A stretch of 64,000 nt of DNA from an uncultured Opitutia bacterium (GTDB taxonomy: Bacteria > Verrucomicrobiota > Verrucomicrobiia > Opitutales > CAJWYM01). The translations under genes were made by a program, and so were the position numbers. The DNA is taken from positions 5,797 through 69,796 of the forward strand of contig CAJWYM010000003.1 of the NCBI GenBank assembly GCA_913049555.1. The letters are read 5' to 3'. Below the pieces are notes generated by a model. It had not been told where the DNA came from and searched no databases. It was given only the letters and a program-made list of their open reading frames with translations. This document shows, one piece after another, positions 16,863 to 58,201 of the stretch (position 1 is its first letter; the number at the start of each line of letters is the position of its first letter).

Positions 16863-18869
16863 ATGAGCGAAGAAGATAGCAATCAAGAAAATATACTGAG
16901 TAAACCGTCGGCTAAAAAAGCGGTTAAAAAGAAAGCAGCTAAGAAAAAAGCAGCCAAGAAAAAAGCGGTTAAAAAGAAGGTTGCCAAGAAGAGAACTTTA
17001 AAATCTGCCGTAAAAAAAGACATTCAAATGGAAATGGATTTTGAGCAATCTTCTGCGAATCCTCCTGCGCTCAAAGAGTCTCCAACTAAAAATGAGGATG
17101 AAGTTGTAATGACCTCATTTTCAACTGGAGATTCTAATGAGGGTGAATCTTTTTCAGTGTTTAAGGACAATAAAAAATCAGAGGAAGCATCGGTTCAAAC
17201 TGAAGAAATTGTTTTACCCAATCTGCCTAAAGAGTCAAAAGATGAATCCACAGATCCTAGGGATTCTAATCCTGCGGAAAGCGATTTAAGAAACGTTCAT
17301 CCACAAAATCAAAATAAAGGTGGATCTAAAAAAAGATTTGATAAAAACCGTTTTAAAAACAAGCACAAAAACAATCAAAACAACCACCCGAACCAAAATC
17401 CGAACCAAAACCCCAACCAAAGAAAACAAAAGCAAAAACAAAACCCTAATCAGCGTAAAAAAAGTAGGAAAAACAAGGCATTTTTCCATGATCAGGAAAT
17501 CGAAGGTGGCTTTGATTATGACGGCCTTTTGCAATTGGAGGCATTCCAGTCTATCGAAGCATTCAATACCTTTATTAATGATGAGGCTAACAAGGTCGTT
17601 TTAGTTGCCGAAGAATTTTTATTTGATGAAGTCTATCAGTTGCCTGTGCCTGAATTGATTGAATATGCGGTTTCTAGGGGAATTGAGAGTGATGGATCCC
17701 CAAACCGAGAGGAGCTTTTGTCTAAAATCCTTTTTTACCAGAAAGAAAAAGGAAAAGTATTGATCATCGAGGGAATCATCGAAGTTCTTGAAGATGGACA
17801 CGCTGCATTGGTTTATCAATTGGATAATTACAGACAGAAAACCTACAGTATTTTTATCCCAGAATTTTTCGTTAAAAAAGAAGGTCTCTTGCCTGGGCAT
17901 TCAGTAAAGGTTGCTTTCCACCCTCACGAAAACAACAGTCCATTTGTTCTTAAAGTCCTAACTGTTATGGGAACTCAACCAGAATTGGTTTCTGCCCGTG
18001 TGCCTTTTACTGAATTGATTCCTTACTATCCGACGGAGCGAATTGTCATGGAGGGATCCCCAGACATTGATTTTGACAACACTTCCATGAGAATTGTGGA
18101 TTTGATTTCACCGATTGGTTTTGGGCAACGTTCTCTCATTGTGGCTCCTCCTAGGACTGGGAAAACTGTTTTGATGCAAGCAATGGCGAAAAGCATCCGC
18201 AAATCCTACCCAGATTTACATTTGATCATTTTGTTGGTAGATGAACGACCTGAGGAGGTCACTGATTTTAGAAGGCAAGTAGATGCTGAAGTGATTGCCT
18301 CAACATTCGATGAGAACGCTGAAAGCCATGTTCATGCCGCTGAAATGGTAATTGAGAAGGCTCGCAGAATGGTTGAAGCTGGGAAAGATGTGGCCATTTT
18401 ATTAGATTCCATCACCCGTTTAGCTCGTGCTTACAACACAAGTTTGCCCAACAGTGGAAAAATCCTTTCTGGAGGCATGGAAGCCAATGCTTTGCAAAGG
18501 CCAAAGAGATTTTTCGGATCTGCGAGAAATATTGAGGGTGGGGGAAGTTTAACCATAATCGGAACGGCTTTGGTTGAAACGGGTAGCAAAATGGACGAAG
18601 TGATCTTTGAGGAATTTAAAGGAACGGGCAACATGGAGTTGCATTTAGATCGAGCGATGTCTGAGAAAAGAATTTACCCAGCCTTGAGTATGGATAAAAG
18701 CGGTACGCGGAAGGAGGAATTGCTCTATCATCCGGACGAGTTGAACAAAGTTTACTCTCTCAGACGTGCAATGAAGGGAGTTCCACCCGTGGATGCAATG
18801 GAAAGCTTGATCCAGCGTGTAAAAAAGACTAAAACCAATGTCGAATTTTTAATGACCCTGGGCCGATAG
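16863..18869 (+). CDS. rho: Transcription termination factor Rho with a ~250-aa low-complexity N-terminal extension
   Basis: The C-terminal ~410 aa are canonical Rho (Rho_N helix bundle [15 protein letters not shown] domain [14 protein letters not shown], Walker [38 protein letters not shown]). The N-terminal part is Lys/Ala repeats plus an Asn/Gln/Pro-rich tract. Confidence 0.92.
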
Positions 18870-50920: not shown

Positions 50921-51547
50921 TTAGGTTTCTTTGGCCAATTCATCCAAAGTAATTGCATTGGATTTTCCAAATTTTGGCTTAAATTCTGGAAGAGGATTTT
51001 CTTCTGGGGCGGTTTCCACCTCTTCAATGAGGTCTGTTGAAGGAAGCTTTTCATTGGGATCCTCTTTTTCCAAGCTTATGTCCTCATCGGAAGCTAATTT
51101 AGGATGGGAGTCTAAAGAATCTTCCTCAGCAGAGGAAACATCTAAGGAAGAATCATCGGGTAAGGAATTCTCTATCGAGGAATCATCGGGTAAGGATGTC
51201 ACGGATTCATTTTCTTGGAATTTATCTTCAGAGACTTCTTTTTCCTTAGCTAGAAGCTCAATTTTTTTTATTCTAGAGAGCAATGTATCAATCTCTTTTT
51301 GTTGCAATTCAATCGTTTCCTGATCCTTGTTGGATATGTTTGGATCTATCTCTTTTGAACCAACCACCAAAGTTGGAGCCGAATGAGTTTCTTTTTCAGC
51401 CTTTTGATCCTCAAGATCTTTCTTCAAAAGAGCTTCGAACTCATCTAAAGCCTCCGATAAAATCTTAACAACAATCTCAGACAATTTAGGATCGTCTTTA
51501 ATGATGGGGTTTGAAACCGTAAATTTAGCAATGATTTCTTGTTTCAT
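50921..51547 (-). CDS. Highly acidic hypothetical protein with a short tandem repeat
   Basis: 208 aa, very rich in Asp/Glu/Ser, with no signal peptide. It has the tandem SLPDDSSIEN/SLPDDSSLDV, mirrored by a DNA repeat gaatcatcgggtaagga around 51140-51200. Confidence 0.5.
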   Translation of the reverse strand: MKQEIIAKFTVSNPIIKDDPKLSEIVVKILSEALDEFEALLKKDLEDQKAEKETHSAPTLVVGSKEIDPNISNKDQETIELQQKEIDTLLSRIKKIELLAKEKEVSEDKFQENESVTSLPDDSSIENSLPDDSSLDVSSAEEDSLDSHPKLASDEDISLEKEDPNEKLPSTDLIEEVETAPEENPLPEFKPKFGKSNAITLDELAKET

Positions 51548-51761
51548 GATTGATTTTAGTTTTCTGGGATTAGCAAGGCATGTATCAATTGGAGTAGTCT
51601 TATTATCGGATCATTGTGGATGATTGGCAAGTATCTAAAACTTAATTTTGGTCCATAAGATCCCACGGAAAGCAATCCTATTAGGATAAAAACATTTTGA
51701 ATTTTCAAATTTGTTTGTAGGCCTACAACAATCAGAACTTTAGTGAGTAGATTTATTAACT

Positions 51762-52724
51762 GTTGCGGATTGACCGCAGGTTCTGAATTACTAAGATATA
51801 AATTGAGTATTGCAGAAATTACCAGTTGTTGCGGATTGACCGCAGGTTCTGAATTACTAAGATGATTCCCAATGGATGGTTTGTAGAAGGCATGTTGCGG
51901 ATTGACCGCAGGTTCTGAATTACTAAGATTTGTTGGAGTGCAGGGAAAGAGTGGGAGGTGTTGCGGATTGACCGCAGGTTCTGAATTACTAAGATCAAGC
52001 GTTTCGTTTTCCAATTTCTATTTGGGTTGCGGATTGACCGCAGGTTCTGAATTACTAAGATTTTGCTGAAAAAAACTCACGAACATTATTAGTTGCGGAT
52101 TGACCGCAGGTTCTGAATTACTAAGATAAGTCGTCTGCGTCTACATTGCTAAACCAGGTTGCGGATTGACCGCAGGTTCTGAATTACTAAGATTTGGAAT
52201 GAATTGGTGGAATAAACACGTTAGGTTGCGGATTGACCGCAGGTTCTGAATTACTAAGATTTCTGGACGAAAAAGGTTGCATCATAGGTTTAGTTGCGGA
52301 TTGACCGCAGGTTCTGAATTACTAAGATTAACATTATAGATCAGTTTAGCACTCTTGAGTTGCGGATTGACCGCAGGTTCTGAATTACTAAGATTGAACA
52401 ACTTGAAGACATTTATGTTCAATAGTTGCGGATTGACCGCAGGTTCTGAATTACTAAGATAATAGGAAATCAGCCGATTAGAAGAGTTCTGTTGCGGATT
52501 GACCGCAGGTTCTGAATTACTAAGATTTGCCGAGAACTAGAGAGACAGATAACACTGTTGCGGATTGACCGCAGGTTCTGAATTACTAAGATTAAATAAG
52601 CACATCGTTCAGCACTTTGATCGTTGCGGATTGACCGCAGGTTCTGAATTACTAAGATAATTGAGAAACACAGCCTTTGTAATTTGTAGTTGCGGATTGA
52701 CCGCAGGTTCTGAATTACTAAGAT
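51762..52724 (+). CRISPR. CRISPR array: 15 identical 36-bp repeats (GTTGCGGATTGACCGCAGGTTCTGAATTACTAAGAT) and 14 spacers (twelve of 30 bp, one of 31 bp, one of 32 bp)
   Basis: Repeats start at 51762, 51828, 51894, 51960, 52026, 52092, 52158, 52225, 52293, 52359, 52425, 52491, 52557, 52623 and 52689. The plus-strand orientation is inferred from complementarity to the plus-strand tracrRNA, the GTTG...AT repeat ends typical of type II-C, and the repeat-internal promoter. Confidence 0.97.
51770..51797 (+). promoter_or_regulatory. Repeat-embedded sigma70-like promoter (representative copy; the same element is present in all 15 repeats)
   Basis: Repeat positions 9-14 are TTGACC (-35). A 16-bp spacer follows. 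Repeat positions 31-36 are TAAGAT (-10), which is the last 6 nt of the repeat. Confidence 0.55.
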
Positions 52725-52728
52725 ATAC

Positions 52729-52777
52729 TTCCTGTAAATTGTTATTTTTTAATAGTTTACAGGAATTATTATTTTTT
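52729..52777 (+). terminator. Intrinsic terminator-like hairpin at the cas2-proximal end of the array
   Basis: ttcctgtaaa-(17-nt loop)-tttacaggaa forms a 10-bp stem, followed by ttattatttttt on the plus strand. Confidence 0.5.
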
Positions 52778-52794
52778 AAATTTGCACATTTTTC

Positions 52795-53127
52795 TCAAAA
52801 AAGCATGAGTTGTACCGGTTTTTTCTCAGTTTTCTGAAGCTTTCGATTGCAAATAAATACGCTTTCAGCGAATTGACGATCTGTAAAAAAAAGGATTGTT
52901 ACATCTCCTGAGTCTGGAACATGAGTTTTTATACGCTGAACATAGGGTTTTAACTTATCTCGTTCTCCTATAAATCGGAGATAAACGGAGTATTGTGACA
53001 TCTCGAAACCTTCATCCAAAAGAAAATTTCTAAATCCAGAGGCACTTTTTCTCTCATTATCAGTTATTACAGGAAGATCGAACATGACCATAATCCACAT
53101 AAGTCGGTATCCATTCAAGGGGTTCAT
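52795..53127 (-). CDS. cas2: CRISPR-associated endoribonuclease Cas2 (type II)
   Basis: 110 aa. YRLMWIMVMFDLPV...FRNFLLDEGFEMSQYSVYLRF is the typical type II Cas2 N-terminus. There is a 4-nt overlap with cas1. Confidence 0.9.
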   Translation of the reverse strand: MNPLNGYRLMWIMVMFDLPVITDNERKSASGFRNFLLDEGFEMSQYSVYLRFIGERDKLKPYVQRIKTHVPDSGDVTILFFTDRQFAESVFICNRKLQKTEKKPVQLMLF

Positions 53128-54062
53128 AGAGTATTCTTTAAAAACTCTTTCATAGCAGAGATAGAGGGTAAAGAAGGTTTTGAAAGTTGTTTTTTGTGAC
53201 CTGAAGCAATACCCGCTAGATCTCGAGTTATTTGCATTATGTGACTAAATAAATCTAAAGAGTTCTTGTCTTCTTCCCTTTTCCATTTGAAATGAAGAAG
53301 GGAAACAATACGAGTTTTCATGTTATTATCTAGGATGAGTTCCTCATAAGGATCTTTAATCCAAATAGAATATACAATGGCATCAATTAAGGGACGAAAC
53401 GGCTCCATCAAGTCATCGGCCAATCGAAATACATTGACACTTTGTTTGTGATGAAGTGCAAAAGATGGATGTAAGCCGGCAGCATAAATTGCTCTAATCG
53501 TGGATGCTCGAATTATCGTATAGCCATAATTTAGACAAGAATTAATACCTGGTTCATTTCTATCCCGAGTAAAATCTCTTCCCATCAATATTTTCCAATA
53601 TCTAGATGCCCCTGCTGACTCTCTATTATCTAAATCTCCAGATTTTACTTTTTTTGCCATGAGTAAAAGTGGCTTATGATTCAAACCAAACAACTCTAAC
53701 ACTTTAGCTTGATTCATCAATTTAGCCTGGATGATGGCTTTCCAAGCCTGTTTCTTTTTGGGTATGGGCATCAATGCTTGTTTCTCATGAACGCCTGATT
53801 GTTGATAATGAGATTGCGTAGGTGTTAAAATTGCTTCTGGCAAAAATGAAGAATTGCATAGTATCAATGGTATTTTGTGGGTTGCCAGTTTACATAAGAG
53901 TGAGTGAGAAAAAGAAGTTCCGCGTGCAAGGACAATAACGGCATGAATTAAATCGAAAGGGATTCGTTTTTTAACCTCTTTGCCAGTTTTTAGTACCAGA
54001 CAACCTCGACTAGCACTTAGGAAAAAACCATATTCGCTCAATTCAAGAACAGATCCATTCAT
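53124..54062 (-). CDS. cas1: CRISPR-associated endonuclease Cas1 (type II)
   Basis: 312 aa with LNYGYTIIRASTIRAIYAAGLHPSFALHH...FRLADDLMEPFRPLID (Cas1 catalytic region). There is a 4-nt overlap with cas9. Confidence 0.92.
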   Translation of the reverse strand: MNGSVLELSEYGFFLSASRGCLVLKTGKEVKKRIPFDLIHAVIVLARGTSFSHSLLCKLATHKIPLILCNSSFLPEAILTPTQSHYQQSGVHEKQALMPIPKKKQAWKAIIQAKLMNQAKVLELFGLNHKPLLLMAKKVKSGDLDNRESAGASRYWKILMGRDFTRDRNEPGINSCLNYGYTIIRASTIRAIYAAGLHPSFALHHKQSVNVFRLADDLMEPFRPLIDAIVYSIWIKDPYEELILDNNMKTRIVSLLHFKWKREEDKNSLDLFSHIMQITRDLAGIASGHKKQLSKPSLPSISAMKEFLKNTL

Positions 54063-57000
54063 GAAATTTTTACTTTAACGGCTCTAGATTGGACTTTTCC
54101 TAAAATATCAACAGATGCTTTTTTGGCTTTATATTGTTGAAGTTTTGATGCAGGCAATGCCAAAGTTAATTCGTCGCCTTTCTCTCTAGCTATTTGATGT
54201 GCTCGAAAATAAACTCTTCCATCTTGTCTCATTTTCTTTACTTTATATAAATCACTCACTCCATTAATTTCCAACTCTACCATATCGCTTATTTGCAATG
54301 TCATTATTTTTCTGGCAGTAGGATACTCTTTCTTCCAATTAGGTGTAAAACCTCTTTGATGTGCGTCAAAGTTGGATATAATTTCAGATCGCCACTTACC
54401 TTTCTTCTCACCAAAGAGGGGGACATAAATATCTGCACAAAAGTTTCCTCCAGTGGCAACATATTTAAAATGCTCCTTTCCAGCTTGATCTTTGTGCGTG
54501 ATTTTACGCATAGTTCTAATGTCCTTCTCGCGATGGATCCGAACTCTTCTAATACCTGTTTTCACAGTATATTCTGAAAGAAAGGTTTGCCATTCCTTAT
54601 CACTAGTAATAACTCGGTTAGCATCCATGAGTGATTTTTGCACTCTTTGGTCGGCAATTTCTTTTATGTTTTTTTCAGCTTTTTTTATACTTTGTAGTTC
54701 AACCCGATTTGCAACTATTACTTTGTCCTTTTTACCTTGGCTAATAAGCCCGTAATTGGTCTCTTCGTGTAAGGGTGAAATGGATATTTGTGAATTATTT
54801 CTGTCATTTTTCCTTCCAATCTTTAAGCCATGGTCTGGTTTGTATGACACGACAATTCTTTGAGCACTATCTTTAAGTTTATCGGGATTAAAGTGATCCC
54901 AAGGGGAGGGCATGTTGGCAAAAATTTCATCTGGTTTACCCAATTCCATCTCACGCACTTTTTGTGCTGTACTAGATAACTTTTGGAGGAAACGGGTTGT
55001 GGTGCAGGCAACTGTAAACGCATCGATTGCATGATGGCGATTGTCATCCCTATTTTTTACACCATCTGAGAGAATATGATTCAATCCCCAAGAACGACGA
55101 AGTATTGCAGTCATTTGTCCAGTAACTACATTTACTTTAGCAACAATGGTATTTAAATATTGATGAGCCACTTTAGAGAGATATCGAGTATCATTAAGCA
55201 AACGAGCAATGCCATCTCCACTTTCAGCAAATCTGTTCATAGCGTCCGCTTCAAACCTCCATCTTTTATTCTTTGGTAGTTGCATGGCATGACTCATTAT
55301 ACTTGCCCATTCATCAGAACCATAAAATGCCTCATAGGGGGTGCGATTTCCTTTTTTTCTATTAGCATGTCTGAAACAGACCGTTTTGTTTGCCATGGAA
55401 TCATCAAAAGTCTGTGAAAATGGCAACAAATGCTCAATTTCGACTTCTGGGCTGAATAACTGGTGGATAGCAATGGGCTCTCTACTAAATGGACAACAGC
55501 GAGCTGCAGGATTTGTGCTTAATTCCTCCCAAAGTTTAAAACACTGCCTATTTTCACGATTCTTTTTAATCCCTAACTTGTCGAGTTCTGAATCAATCTT
55601 TTGATTTTGTAGAGTGTTTTTTCTCTGGAAATCTTTATACTGTTTCTTTTGTTTTTCAGTTCTCTTCAAATCTCTTGCTAATTCAATAACGATACAGTCT
55701 GGTTTTCCATATTTATTTATTATGGCATTAATTATTTTACGCAGTTGATTGAGTCCAAGATGAACAGTAGGGTTATTTATTTTACCCCAATACTTTTCAG
55801 GTTCTTTTTCTCGATCATACTTAGACCGATCTTGTGGAGGAATAACTACATCTTCAAGTACTTCTCCATAATAGGGCAATTCATCGTAAATCATTTCAGG
55901 ATTACGAGCGGAATGGTGATAACCTGCTTTTTGACAGGCTTCATGATAGCGAAATCCAGCTTGTAGATAGGGAAGTATTTTACGAATTGCTAGCAAACTT
56001 AATTTAGCATGTCCATCCGCAATGCGAATAGATGAAATTTGTTTTGCGTTGTTTTTAGTCATTGAATAATTGTCAATAAAATATTGTAGCAAGGGTTCCT
56101 CCTCAGGCTCATCACGAATGAGTTGAACAATTTCGGTTTGCTTTTTTTCACTCAATTGAAACCACGCTTCTCCAAAACAATTAGAATGTGAAAGTTGTCG
56201 AGCAGTCGTGTCAGCTTTGAGTCCATCCCTTCCAGCACTTTCTAAATTAAATGGACAATCACTCTCAAGATTCAGTATTTTTTTACGGATTGTTTTAAAG
56301 AGTAAGGTGCCTTTAGTATTTACCATGCTTTTTCCCTTTTGCGTGCATAGTAAATGAGACGCTATCAAATTAAGCTCATCTTTAGACAATGACTGCTTTC
56401 CATTCAATGTTTCGAGTTCTAAATTATTAACCTCTTGCCAAACGCGAAACTGTTGAACTAAAGAAATAGATAAGGGTGCTCTTTCACCTGCTTTACCAAC
56501 CGCTTTATATTCAAATGTACATCTACCAACAGGTTGAGGCTTTAAGGGTCGCTGATTGATAATAATGTGATGCACTTTTACCAATAGCTCTGGAGTAAGT
56601 TCGTCATAATGTTTTTTTTGGAAATCCCATATTTTTTCTATCTCAGCTTCATACATGGAGCGATCTGGGTAACCCAAATCCCAAATATTTTTTCCAGATT
56701 TGTTACTTGTAGGGCGGAAACGAGTCCATTCTCCATTTTGATATCTTTCGAACAGAAACTCTCCTAATGTTTTGCCATTTAATGTTTTTTTCAACTTTGA
56801 TATTCCTACCTTCATTCCTGATGACTCATCAAGATCGTTTCTGTCTATTTTTCTATTAGACTTGAAACCACGATGTTTACAAATATGAACAAGAGCTCTA
56901 CCAACTTCAAAAAGACTCAGTTTTTCTCTAACAGCTAAGGCTCTTAATTTGTAAGGGTTTTCATATTTCAGTTCTTGTTGATCCTTCTGATCTACGGGGA

Positions 57001-57259
57001 ACAATCCATGTAAAGTTAGAATTCTTATAAGTTCTCTTTGTCGTGCTAAGGCCCTATCTCTTCTTCTACGACTACATCTTTTCTCCCTTCTTTCTACAGC
57101 AAGAGGTTGATTGCTTTTTGCATCCCTTCCATCAGGAAAAATTCTGACGCCCCAGTCAATTAGCTCACATGGCTCATTGCTGAAATTATTATTTTTTAAT
57201 AAAGCCCAGCCAATGGAACTTTGTCCAAGATCAAGTCCTAGTGTAGTTTTATTTTTCAT
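54059..57259 (-). CDS. cas9: Cas9, type II-C (compact, 1066 aa)
   Basis: RuvC-I LGLDLGQSSIGWALL (Asp10), Arg-rich bridge helix RREKRCSRRRRDRALARQRELIRIL, RuvC-II CIVIELARDL, HNH EIEHLLPFSQTFDDSMANKTVCFRHANRKKGNRTP, and RuvC-III NRHHAIDAFTVA. There is no csn2 or cas4 in the locus. Confidence 0.95.
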   Translation of the reverse strand: MKNKTTLGLDLGQSSIGWALLKNNNFSNEPCELIDWGVRIFPDGRDAKSNQPLAVERREKRCSRRRRDRALARQRELIRILTLHGLFPVDQKDQQELKYENPYKLRALAVREKLSLFEVGRALVHICKHRGFKSNRKIDRNDLDESSGMKVGISKLKKTLNGKTLGEFLFERYQNGEWTRFRPTSNKSGKNIWDLGYPDRSMYEAEIEKIWDFQKKHYDELTPELLVKVHHIIINQRPLKPQPVGRCTFEYKAVGKAGERAPLSISLVQQFRVWQEVNNLELETLNGKQSLSKDELNLIASHLLCTQKGKSMVNTKGTLLFKTIRKKILNLESDCPFNLESAGRDGLKADTTARQLSHSNCFGEAWFQLSEKKQTEIVQLIRDEPEEEPLLQYFIDNYSMTKNNAKQISSIRIADGHAKLSLLAIRKILPYLQAGFRYHEACQKAGYHHSARNPEMIYDELPYYGEVLEDVVIPPQDRSKYDREKEPEKYWGKINNPTVHLGLNQLRKIINAIINKYGKPDCIVIELARDLKRTEKQKKQYKDFQRKNTLQNQKIDSELDKLGIKKNRENRQCFKLWEELSTNPAARCCPFSREPIAIHQLFSPEVEIEHLLPFSQTFDDSMANKTVCFRHANRKKGNRTPYEAFYGSDEWASIMSHAMQLPKNKRWRFEADAMNRFAESGDGIARLLNDTRYLSKVAHQYLNTIVAKVNVVTGQMTAILRRSWGLNHILSDGVKNRDDNRHHAIDAFTVACTTTRFLQKLSSTAQKVREMELGKPDEIFANMPSPWDHFNPDKLKDSAQRIVVSYKPDHGLKIGRKNDRNNSQISISPLHEETNYGLISQGKKDKVIVANRVELQSIKKAEKNIKEIADQRVQKSLMDANRVITSDKEWQTFLSEYTVKTGIRRVRIHREKDIRTMRKITHKDQAGKEHFKYVATGGNFCADIYVPLFGEKKGKWRSEIISNFDAHQRGFTPNWKKEYPTARKIMTLQISDMVELEINGVSDLYKVKKMRQDGRVYFRAHQIAREKGDELTLALPASKLQQYKAKKASVDILGKVQSRAVKVKIS

Positions 57260-57267
57260 TTAGTTAA

Positions 57268-57297
57268 TTGACTTAAGTGAGTACATTTATTTATTAT
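57268..57297 (+). promoter_or_regulatory. Predicted tracrRNA promoter
   Basis: TTGACT (57268-57273), an 18-bp spacer, then TATTAT (57292-57297). The predicted start site (~57303-57305) coincides with the first nucleotides of the anti-repeat. Confidence 0.5.
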
Positions 57298-57302
57298 TTA
57301 TT

Positions 57303-57393
57303 ATCTTAGTAATTCAGAGCCTGCGATCTCTACGTTAACAAGCGAAATTTATCGCAAAAAATTTAATACCAAGCTTCGGCTTGGTATTTTTTT
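57303..57393 (+). ncRNA. Predicted tracrRNA (~90 nt)
   Basis: 57303-57328 (ATCTTAGTAATTCAGAGCCTGCGATC) is complementary to repeat positions 11-36, with 24 Watson-Crick pairs, 1 G-U and 1 mismatch. CGUUAAC (57333-57339) can pair with repeat positions 1-6 across a bulge. There is a small hairpin gcga-aattta-tcgc (57342-57355). The terminal hairpin taccaagc-ttcg-gcttggta (57367-57386) is followed by T7. Confidence 0.75.
57361..57393. terminator. Bidirectional intrinsic terminator shared by the tracrRNA (+) and the WYL regulator gene (-)
   Basis: An 8-bp GC-containing stem with a UUCG loop is flanked by T7 on the plus strand and by AAAAAATTTAA on its left side (a U-rich tail when read on the minus strand). 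The WYL gene stop codon (57392-57394) lies in the T tract. Confidence 0.6.
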
Positions 57394-58201
57394 AGTTCAT
57401 TTCTTCCTCCCCCTTAAGGAAAAGTAAATGGTTGTTATTTGTTTGTCCGACGAAACTGTCTTCTTTAAATTGTAACATTCTCAATGAGTAACCCCTCATC
57501 GCTTTCCGTGTATGGATGTGAAGCAAACCATCTTCCATGCAATAGTCCATTTCTATAGATTGGATTGCGTATGCATCCAACTCAGGATTTGCAATAATAC
57601 TGAGTTCAACCCAACTATTCCACAATACATCAACATATTGAACCGCTGGCTGATTCAATTGAGTAATTTTTGTCATTCTTCCCGGAAGAAAATCTCTAAA
57701 TTCCTTATTTTCGTAACACCACGCCCTTACATGCCAACGAAACCCATCACTACAAATCGAGTGGGGAGCAATTTTACGTCTTTTCAATGTGTTTGAATGC
57801 AGAGAACAATAGGTAATCTCTAAAATATTTTTTGCATGTATTGCTCTTAGATTACTTCTTAATTTTTCAACACTACTAATCCTACTTGGGTGATTGATTT
57901 TATTTTGATGTTCCTGATGATTTAAAAAAGTGTCTAAGGCATCCTCAAAATCGAACAAATCTATGAATATAGGATTAAAGTTCCTCGATGGGATATATCG
58001 CTTCACTTTTAAACAATATTCAATAGAACCCGGATTCAATAACTGGTATTTTTGAATATCTGAGGAAGCTTGTGGTAATGAAATTGAAAACCGCATAGAT
58101 AAATCTGAGCGATTTACTTTTCCAAGCCACCACAAACATTTTTCTATATGCTTCAATCGCTCTTTAGCATCCCATGCTAATGGATTCGTAAAATTTGGCA
58201 T
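57392..58201 (-). CDS. wHTH-WYL-domain transcriptional regulator (BrxR/CapW/PafBC-like architecture)
   Basis: 269 aa. N-terminal winged-HTH-like KVNRSDLSMRFSISLPQASSDIQKY. Central WYL-like core RRKIAPHSICSDGFRWHVRAWCYENKEFRDFLPGRMTKI. The C-terminal extension WVELSIIANPELDAYAIQSIEMDY...RKAMRGYSLRML is WCX-like. Confidence 0.7.
   Translation of the reverse strand: MPNFTNPLAWDAKERLKHIEKCLWWLGKVNRSDLSMRFSISLPQASSDIQKYQLLNPGSIEYCLKVKRYIPSRNFNPIFIDLFDFEDALDTFLNHQEHQNKINHPSRISSVEKLRSNLRAIHAKNILEITYCSLHSNTLKRRKIAPHSICSDGFRWHVRAWCYENKEFRDFLPGRMTKITQLNQPAVQYVDVLWNSWVELSIIANPELDAYAIQSIEMDYCMEDGLLHIHTRKAMRGYSLRMLQFKEDSFVGQTNNNHLLFLKGEEEMN

What the first reader, a model, noticed from the sequence alone, without database searches (positions are those of the whole stretch)
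51762..52724. Every CRISPR repeat contains a near-consensus sigma70 promoter pointing into the next spacer, opposite to the cas genes
What the sequence shows: in plus-strand orientation each of the 15 identical repeats reads ...A-TTGACC-gcaggttctgaattac-TAAGAT. That is a 5/6 match to the -35 consensus, a 16-bp spacer, and a -10 with the critical T-A...T positions, ending exactly at the repeat/spacer boundary. What I infer: transcription would start ~6-8 nt into each 30-nt spacer, giving ~23-24-nt guides without RNase III 5' processing. What is established: this is the mechanism described for Neisseria meningitidis and Campylobacter jejuni type II-C arrays. Three further observations support the plus-strand direction: the plus-strand tracrRNA anti-repeat, a plus-strand terminator hairpin right after the last repeat (52729-52777), and the GTTG...AT repeat termini. 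Repeat positions 3-7 and 13-17 (TGCGG/CCGCA) can also form a small hairpin that overlaps the -35 element. All repeats, including both terminal ones, are identical, which suggests a young or actively homogenised array.
Basis: partly seen in the sequence, partly recalled or inferred. Interest (0 to 1): 0.65.

Follow-up and report, generated by a model that had tools for sequence, protein, structure and literature searches.

The report
Type II-C CRISPR array with repeat-embedded promoters
This is an ordinary Neisseria-type (II-C) CRISPR-Cas9 locus in a marine Verrucomicrobium, and each of its repeats carries the promoter-like box at its 3' end that is already known for this family; the only small twist is a -35 box in place of the usual extended -10 G.

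Summary
There are 15 identical 36-nt repeats (51762-52724), and each reads TTGACC-N16-TAAGAT on the + strand, with the -10 ending on the last repeat base.

The + strand is the crRNA strand. A tracrRNA gene lies divergent from cas9 at about 57303-57393 (+). It has its own conserved TTGAC-type promoter, a nexus hairpin and a terminator hairpin, both with compensatory changes in three homologous loci. A strong hairpin plus U-tract follows the last repeat on the + strand only.

The locus is cas9-cas1-cas2 with no csn2 or cas4, so it is type II-C. The host is a marine Opitutales-like Verrucomicrobium.

In 47 related II-C arrays the repeat 3' end keeps T/A/T at the three key -10 positions (98%, 100%, 89%), while the positions between them vary. 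This is the "gnTAnaaT" repeat promoter already published for II-C systems and shown experimentally in Neisseria and Campylobacter.

The window's repeat lacks the usual G at -14 and instead has a 5/6 -35 box. Related repeats show the same trade-off, but only suggestively.

Promoter activity was not tested. The RNA runs available gave no strand or 5'-end information. Verdict: a new member of a known kind, low interest.

The parts
51762..52724 (+). CRISPR array: 15 identical 36-nt repeats and 14 spacers (30-32 nt). The crRNA sense is the + strand.
   Evidence: orientation
51770..51775 (+). -35-like TTGACC (repeat positions 9-14) in the first repeat. The same element occurs in all 15 repeats.
   Evidence: found in relatives only in the nearest clade
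51792..51797 (+). -10-like TAAGAT (repeat positions 31-36), ending on the last repeat base. The same element occurs in all 15 repeats. Predicted start is about 6-8 nt into the next spacer.
   Evidence: TAnnnT conserved 46/47, 47/47 and 42/47 in related repeats; geometry as in Neisseria (PMC12477760)
52729..52777 (+). Terminator-like hairpin (16 pairs) plus T-rich tract between the last repeat and cas2. It would stop + strand array transcripts before they run antisense into cas2.
   Evidence: (-18.5 kcal/mol, z -6.2) against the - strand (-9.8, z -2.2, no T-run); L087 has a different hairpin in the same place and orientation
52795..53127 (-). cas2 (110 aa)
53124..54062 (-). cas1, type II (NMENI) subtype (312 aa)
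54059..57259 (-). cas9 (1066 aa), full-length TIGR01865 match. Residues at RuvC and HNH positions are invariant in the alignment.
57268..57297 (+). tracrRNA promoter TTGACT-18-TATTAT, divergent from cas9
   Evidence: ATATTGAC[A/G/T] plus a -10 conserved in L086, L087 and L088
57303..57393 (+). tracrRNA (about 91 nt): anti-repeat 57303-57339, nexus hairpin 57342-57355, terminator hairpin 57365-57388 plus T7
   Evidence: 6 pairs with compensatory changes; repeat:tracrRNA cofold -62.7 kcal/mol
57392..58201 (-). WYL-domain (BrxR-like) protein gene immediately upstream of tracrRNA and cas9. It is a possible regulator; no link was shown.

Best explanation
This is a Neisseria-type (II-C) CRISPR-Cas9 locus of a marine Opitutales-like Verrucomicrobium. 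The array is transcribed from the + strand, convergent with cas9-cas1-cas2. Each repeat most likely acts as its own sigma70-type promoter, with a -35 TTGACC, a 16-bp spacer and a -10 TAAGAT ending on the last repeat base. RNA polymerase would then start about 6-8 nt inside each spacer and produce crRNAs whose 5' ends are primary, carrying about 23-25 nt of guide followed by the next repeat. That repeat pairs with the + strand tracrRNA (57303-57393) and loads into Cas9. RNase III may trim the duplex but would not be needed to make the 5' end. The hairpin plus U-tract at 52729-52777 stops array transcripts, including the one from the last repeat, before they enter cas2 antisense. Shown here: the anatomy, the strand, the tracrRNA, and family-wide conservation of the -10 positions. 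Inferred: promoter activity, start site, and independence from RNase III.
For: The repeats and promoter-like sites are present as described. The locus has cas9, cas1 and cas2 only, with no csn2 or cas4 nearby. The + strand tracrRNA has a conserved promoter and two hairpins with compensatory changes in 4 loci. The repeat:anti-repeat duplex leaves GUUG...UAAC next to the spacer, followed by an AAG-plus-hairpin nexus. The terminator hairpin is strong only on the + strand. All related arrays found lie downstream of cas2 in the same relative orientation. In the 47 aligned, columns 31, 32 and 36 are T 98%, A 100% and T 89%, while columns 33-35 vary; this is the information profile of a -10 box. The same motif, gnTAnaaT, was published for 58 II-C species, with 5'-RACE and RNA-seq support in C. 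jejuni (PMC4607530). Repeat-embedded promoters that start at the 6th spacer nt are established in N. meningitidis (PMC12477760; PMC5965381). The chance of such a site ending at the last base of a random 36-mer is about 0.2%. Loss of the -14 G is nearly confined to repeats that carry TTGAC at the -35 position, as expected if both elements act as promoter elements.
Against: No transcript 5' ends are available. The RNA-labelled runs are thin environmental assemblies without strand information. The -10 is only 4/6, lacks the family's G at -14, and the spacer is 16 rather than 17 bp, so each promoter may be weak. The promoter consensus of this host is unknown, and sigma70-like sites are not enriched in sense over antisense upstream of genes in the window (9 against 9). 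The -35 lies in the repeat part that pairs with tracrRNA and is bound by Cas9. The conserved repeat ends could also serve Cas1-Cas2 integration. Conservation alone therefore does not prove promoter function.
Confidence: 0.75

Rival explanations
1. The array is transcribed as one long pre-crRNA from a promoter in the flank left of repeat 1 (51548-51761, + strand). It is then matured by tracrRNA, RNase III and 5' trimming as in type II-A. On this reading the promoter-like boxes in the repeats are too weak to matter.
For: The repeat -10 is 4/6 without a TG and the spacer is 16 bp. The full 36-nt repeat:anti-repeat complementarity would give an RNase III substrate.
Against: No + strand site of 9/12 or better lies in 51548-51761. 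The nearest is 51465-51492, inside the neighbouring ORF. That flank carries a - strand promoter for the gene at 50921-51547. II-C relatives studied experimentally lack a leader promoter and use repeat promoters.
Confidence: 0.12
2. The TAnnnT and TTGAC motifs are conserved for reasons other than transcription, such as Cas1-Cas2 recognition of repeat ends, or Cas9 and tracrRNA binding of the repeat 5' part. On this reading they only mimic promoter boxes.
For: The repeat termini (GTTG... and ...TAnnnT) are the most conserved parts. The -35 overlaps the Cas9-bound duplex region. No host-specific promoter evidence exists.
Against: The pattern of conserved and free positions in columns 29-36 matches a -10 box, including its -14 G. 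The -14 G and the -35 show a trade-off. The homologous motif has proven promoter activity in Neisseria and Campylobacter. The two roles do not exclude each other.
Confidence: 0.1
3. The array is read from the - strand as the tail of the cas9-cas1-cas2 operon.
For: The array lies directly downstream of cas2 on that strand.
Against: A - strand tracrRNA would have only 43 nt between the anti-repeat and the cas9 ATG, with no scaffold or terminator. The conserved promoter, nexus and terminator are all on the + strand. The hairpin between cas2 and the array is followed by a T-run only on the + strand. The GTTG...AAT polarity matches all II-C relatives.
Confidence: 0.03

Closest known systems
Neisseria meningitidis / N. 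lactamica type II-C CRISPR-Cas9 (repeat GTTGTAGCTCCCTTTCTCATTTCGCAGTGCTACAAT)
   Same: The gene set is cas9-cas1-cas2 only. Repeats are 36 nt and spacers 30 nt. The array is downstream of cas2 and read convergently. The repeat begins GTTG and ends with a -10 box on its last base. Transcription starts at about the 6th spacer nt (PMC12477760; PMC5965381; repeat sequence in PMC4607530).
   Different: Cas9 is only distantly related; the nearest named relatives are about 44% identical. From my memory of Zhang et al. 2013 (not held in the library), the Neisseria promoter is an extended -10 (TGnTACAAT) without a -35. Here the G at -14 is A and a 5/6 -35 sits 16 bp upstream. The host is a Verrucomicrobium. 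Activity is not shown here.
Type II-C repeat promoter motif gnTAnaaT (Pearson et al. 2015, 58 II-C species; C. jejuni 5'-RACE)
   Same: The -10 occupies the last 6 repeat bases with T-12, A-11 and T-7. The array is convergent and antisense to the cas genes. The table in that paper includes Dinoroseobacter shibae GTTGCGGCTGGACCCCGAATTCTGAACAGCTAAACT, which is clearly the same repeat family.
   Different: The window's repeat reads acTAagAT, so it lacks the 'g' and one 'a' of the motif. No terminal repeat is degenerate, whereas that paper says degeneration of the proximal repeat is common.
Bordetella pseudohinzii type II-C locus
   Same: The tracrRNA is encoded divergently upstream of cas9 and flanked by a predicted promoter and a rho-independent terminator. 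The array has 36-nt repeats and 30-nt spacers and lies downstream of the cas genes (PMC4624362).
   Different: The host and repeat sequence differ. Its terminal repeat carries SNPs.

Membership tests
Type II-C CRISPR-Cas | Cas9 effector with RuvC and HNH domains | tested here: met
   TIGR01865 scores 593 bits over residues 6-1054. HNH_4 and RuvC_III Pfam hits are present and catalytic-position residues are invariant.
Type II-C CRISPR-Cas | Only cas1 and cas2 as adaptation genes; no csn2 (II-A) or cas4 (II-B) | tested here: met
   cas1 (NMENI subtype) and cas2 are found. Neighbouring ORFs give no Csn2 or Cas4 hits in NCBIfam or Pfam.
Type II-C CRISPR-Cas | tracrRNA with an anti-repeat complementary to the repeat, followed by structured hairpins and a terminator | tested here: met
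   The anti-repeat at 57303-57328 matches 24/26. The hairpins show compensatory changes in 4 loci. The cofold energy is -62.7 kcal/mol. There is no Rfam hit, which is expected for a divergent tracrRNA.
Type II-C CRISPR-Cas | Array downstream of the cas genes and transcribed convergently (antisense to cas) | tested here: met
   The strand is inferred from the tracrRNA strand and the + strand terminator. All related arrays found have the same layout. No RNA evidence is available.
Repeat-embedded crRNA promoters (Neisseria/Campylobacter mechanism) | -10 box (TAnnnT) at the 3' end of every repeat | tested here: met
   TAAGAT sits at positions 31-36 of all 15 repeats. Family conservation is 98%, 100% and 89% at the three key positions.
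Repeat-embedded crRNA promoters (Neisseria/Campylobacter mechanism) | G at -14 (the 'gn' of gnTAnaaT; extended -10 TGn in Neisseria) | tested here: not met
   The window has TAC before the -10. Column 29 is G in 44 of 47 relatives. A -35 TTGACC is present instead.
Repeat-embedded crRNA promoters (Neisseria/Campylobacter mechanism) | Primary (5'-triphosphate) crRNA ends a few nt inside each spacer | not testable with these tools
   Only unstranded Logan contigs from environmental RNA-labelled runs were available.
Repeat-embedded crRNA promoters (Neisseria/Campylobacter mechanism) | crRNA function independent of RNase III processing | not testable with these tools
   This needs genetics or northern blots in an rnc mutant.

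The most novel reading that the evidence does not exclude
II-C repeat promoters may come in two interchangeable architectures. Most use an extended -10 with a G at -14 and no -35. A minority, including this Verrucomicrobial locus and its relatives L016, L024, L009, L010, L046 and L067, have lost the -14 G and instead rely on a TTGAC -35 built into the Cas9-bound 5' part of the repeat. That stretch would then serve both as guide-RNA scaffold and as promoter element.
Probability: 0.35. Interest if true: 0.35.

Novelty: new member of a known kind. Interest (0 to 1): 0.2.

Why it matters
It adds a marine Verrucomicrobial example to the known class of II-C arrays whose repeats carry their own promoters. 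It gives a fully annotated Cas9, tracrRNA and repeat set for a Cas9 that is at most 52% identical to any other sequence found. It also hints that the -35 and the extended -10 G are alternative solutions within one repeat family. It opens no new question: the mechanism and its sequence signature are published.

Tried and rejected
- **Direct RNA evidence.** Two run searches and two read-laying runs (11, 13, 27, 30) found only environmental runs kept as unstranded contigs. Repeat-spacer-repeat unitigs for spacers 6, 7 and 10 occur in RNA-labelled runs without flanking sequence. This is compatible with array transcripts, but their ends are k-mer graph artefacts and give no 5'-end or strand information.
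- **Protospacers and PAM, to confirm polarity.** blastn of the whole array against GenBank phages and five exact-match scans of viral contigs with 20-26-nt spacer cores found nothing.
- **Host promoter consensus.** Sigma70-like sites upstream of 25 genes in the window are no more frequent in sense than in antisense. Two literature searches for Verrucomicrobial promoter motifs found nothing useful.
- **Rfam.** No family reached its gathering score anywhere in the window.
- **Repeat hairpin (positions 2-7 with 13-18).** It is real in this sequence, but all five core pairs are possible in only 7 of 47 relatives and there is no covariation. I treat it as incidental.
- **Metagenome scan for arrays with the same repeat core.** It returned 19 chance single matches and one remnant mini-array, L090.
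- **The window's own genome.** It was not among the GTDB representative genomes scanned.
- **Zhang et al. 2013 and Mir et al. 2018.** Neither is held in the library.

Full report
**Observation**

The region 51762-52724 holds 15 exact copies of GTTGCGGATTGACCGCAGGTTCTGAATTACTAAGAT. They are separated by twelve 30-nt spacers, one 31-nt spacer and one 32-nt spacer.

The consensus scan finds TTGACC-16-TAAGAT on the + strand of every repeat, which is 9 of 12 matches with no TG before the -10. It finds nothing on the - strand of the repeats. The -10 occupies repeat positions 31-36 and so ends on the last repeat base.

Sites of this quality occur 160 times in the rest of the window on both strands. 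A random 36-mer has one with probability 0.6-1% per strand, and 0.16-0.27% for one that ends at the 3' boundary. The match is real and better than chance. It is 5/6 plus 4/6, so 'near-consensus' is generous.

**Context**

On the - strand lie cas9 (54059-57259, 1066 aa, TIGR01865 593 bits), cas1 (53124-54062, type II NMENI subtype) and cas2 (52795-53127). No Csn2 or Cas4 is encoded nearby. The locus is therefore type II-C.

A WYL-domain gene (57392-58201, -) sits just upstream.

Rho homologues place the host among marine Opitutales/Puniceicoccaceae-like Verrucomicrobiota. GC content is 34-41%.

The Cas9 has no close relative. Three metagenomic proteins are 46-52% identical. The next relatives, about 44% identical, come from Alphaproteobacteria, Cloacimonadota, Verrucomicrobiota and others.

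**Which strand is the crRNA?**

- The only repeat-like sequence outside the array is at 57303-57328 on the + strand. It matches the reverse complement of repeat positions 11-36 at 24 of 26 positions.
- It is preceded by TTGACT-18-TATTAT (57268-57297, +). It is followed by a small hairpin, then a 10-bp GC-containing hairpin and T7 (57365-57393).
- The three closest loci (L086, L087, L088) have the same arrangement. ATATTGAC[A/G/T] sits 16-18 bp before a -10-like hexamer just ahead of the anti-repeat.
- Both hairpins are kept through compensatory changes; 6 pairs show changes on both sides.
- Co-folding the + sense repeat with this RNA gives -62.7 kcal/mol. GUUG at the spacer-proximal end pairs with UAAC, followed by an AAG-plus-hairpin nexus, as in other Cas9 guide RNAs.
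- A - strand tracrRNA would have only 43 nt before the cas9 ATG and no scaffold.
- The hairpin at 52729-52765 folds at -18.5 kcal/mol (z -6.2) and is followed by a U-tract on the + strand. On the - strand it folds at -9.8 kcal/mol (z -2.2) with no U-tract. L087 has a different hairpin in the same place and orientation.

The array is therefore read left to right, convergent with the cas genes.

**Is the promoter-like box a family trait?**

I fetched 80 related cas9 loci and extracted their arrays.

- All lie downstream of cas2 in the same relative orientation.
- In crRNA sense they read GTTGCGG...GCTAnAAT.
- Across the 47 repeats aligned, column 31 is T in 46, column 32 is A in 47, and column 36 is T in 42. 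Columns 33-35 are nearly free.
- Column 29 is G in 44 of 47.

This is the information profile of a sigma70 -10 box with the G of an extended -10.

It is also what Pearson et al. 2015 published for 58 II-C species. They reported 'gnTAnaaT' at the repeat 3' end, an array convergent on the antisense strand, and 5'-RACE confirmation in C. jejuni (PMC4607530).

This locus fits it in position and geometry.

**What is slightly different here**

The window's repeat has A instead of the family's G at column 29. It carries TTGACC at columns 9-14, 16 bp upstream of the -10.

TTGAC at that position occurs only in a minority of relatives. These include the two Verrucomicrobial loci L016 and L024, which share GTTGCGGATTGAC with the window.

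| Repeat group | Repeats lacking the -14 G |
|---|---|
| TTGAC at columns 9-13 | 7 of 13 |
| No TTGAC at columns 9-13 | 1 of 44 |

Fisher's exact test gives p = 4.6e-5 on the raw counts. After collapsing the repeats into 18 sequence clusters it gives p = 0.057. This suggests a trade-off between a -35 and the extended -10 G, which would be expected if both act as promoter elements. The test is not phylogenetically controlled.

**What remains unshown**

- No transcript 5' ends could be obtained. The runs that hold this sequence are environmental and kept as unstranded contigs.
- The host's own promoter consensus is unknown. Sigma70-like sites are not enriched in sense over antisense upstream of genes in the window. 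The conserved TTGAC-type tracrRNA promoter is the best local sign that such promoters work in these hosts.
- The -35 overlaps the repeat part bound by Cas9 and tracrRNA, and the repeat ends may also be read by Cas1-Cas2. Conservation alone does not prove transcriptional function.
It is possible in only 7 of 47 relatives and shows no covariation.
- No protospacers were found, so the PAM and an independent polarity check are missing.

**Verdict**

The phenomenon is already described. This is a new, well-formed member of the Neisseria-type II-C family in a marine Verrucomicrobium, with a minor promoter-architecture variation that could be tested with simple reporter fusions.

Noticed in passing
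window 57392-58201 (-): A WYL-domain (BrxR-like) protein gene sits directly upstream of the tracrRNA and cas9. It is present in all five contigs that carry this exact Cas9, but absent upstream of cas9 in L086, the one close relative whose contig shows full upstream gene calls. It may be a locus-specific regulator.
   Followed up: partly
L090:938-1152 (MDTC01119626.1); window 52624-52837: This is a remnant mini-array in a related strain. It has two repeats, each with one substitution (G1>A; T9>C, which breaks the -35), one unrelated spacer, the same hairpin, and about 40 nt of the cas2 3' end. The sequence then diverges at window position 52837. The same junctions appear as loose ends in run X3, which also holds the intact cas9-cas1-cas2 contig (L003).
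   Followed up: partly
L001:14536-15631 (Tara scaffold), against window 52359-52490: The same locus in a Tara Oceans scaffold has 17 repeats. Spacer 10 occurs twice, flanking one extra spacer. The difference is internal, not at either end of the array.
   Followed up: partly
window 51746: Contigs in runs X1 and X17 match the window up to 51746, 16 nt before repeat 1. They then continue with sequence that is not in the window, so the left array flank is a strain-variable junction.
   Followed up: partly
window 57303-57308 (-): The complement of the anti-repeat puts a repeat-like -10 (TAAGAT) on the - strand 43 nt upstream of the cas9 ATG. No other sigma70-like site of 9/12 or better lies between the bidirectional terminator (57365-57388) and cas9. 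cas9 may therefore be driven by a repeat-derived box. Relatives keep TAnnnT there in only 2 of 4 loci.
   Followed up: partly
window 52128-52260 and 52359-52453: RNA-labelled environmental runs X21, X22 and X23 contain repeat-spacer-repeat unitigs for spacers 6, 7 and 10 only, at depths up to 17. They contain no flanking cas2 or left-flank sequence. This is compatible with uneven crRNA abundance or with strains that share only those spacers.
   Followed up: no
window 51556-52014 (-): A 152-aa ORF in the mechanical ORF list runs through the first four repeats and is almost certainly spurious.
   Followed up: no
window 16863-18869 (+): Rho is 668 aa, with an N-terminal extension of about 250 residues before the conserved Rho core. 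Its relatives are Opitutales/Puniceicoccaceae, and this is what identified the host.
   Followed up: partly
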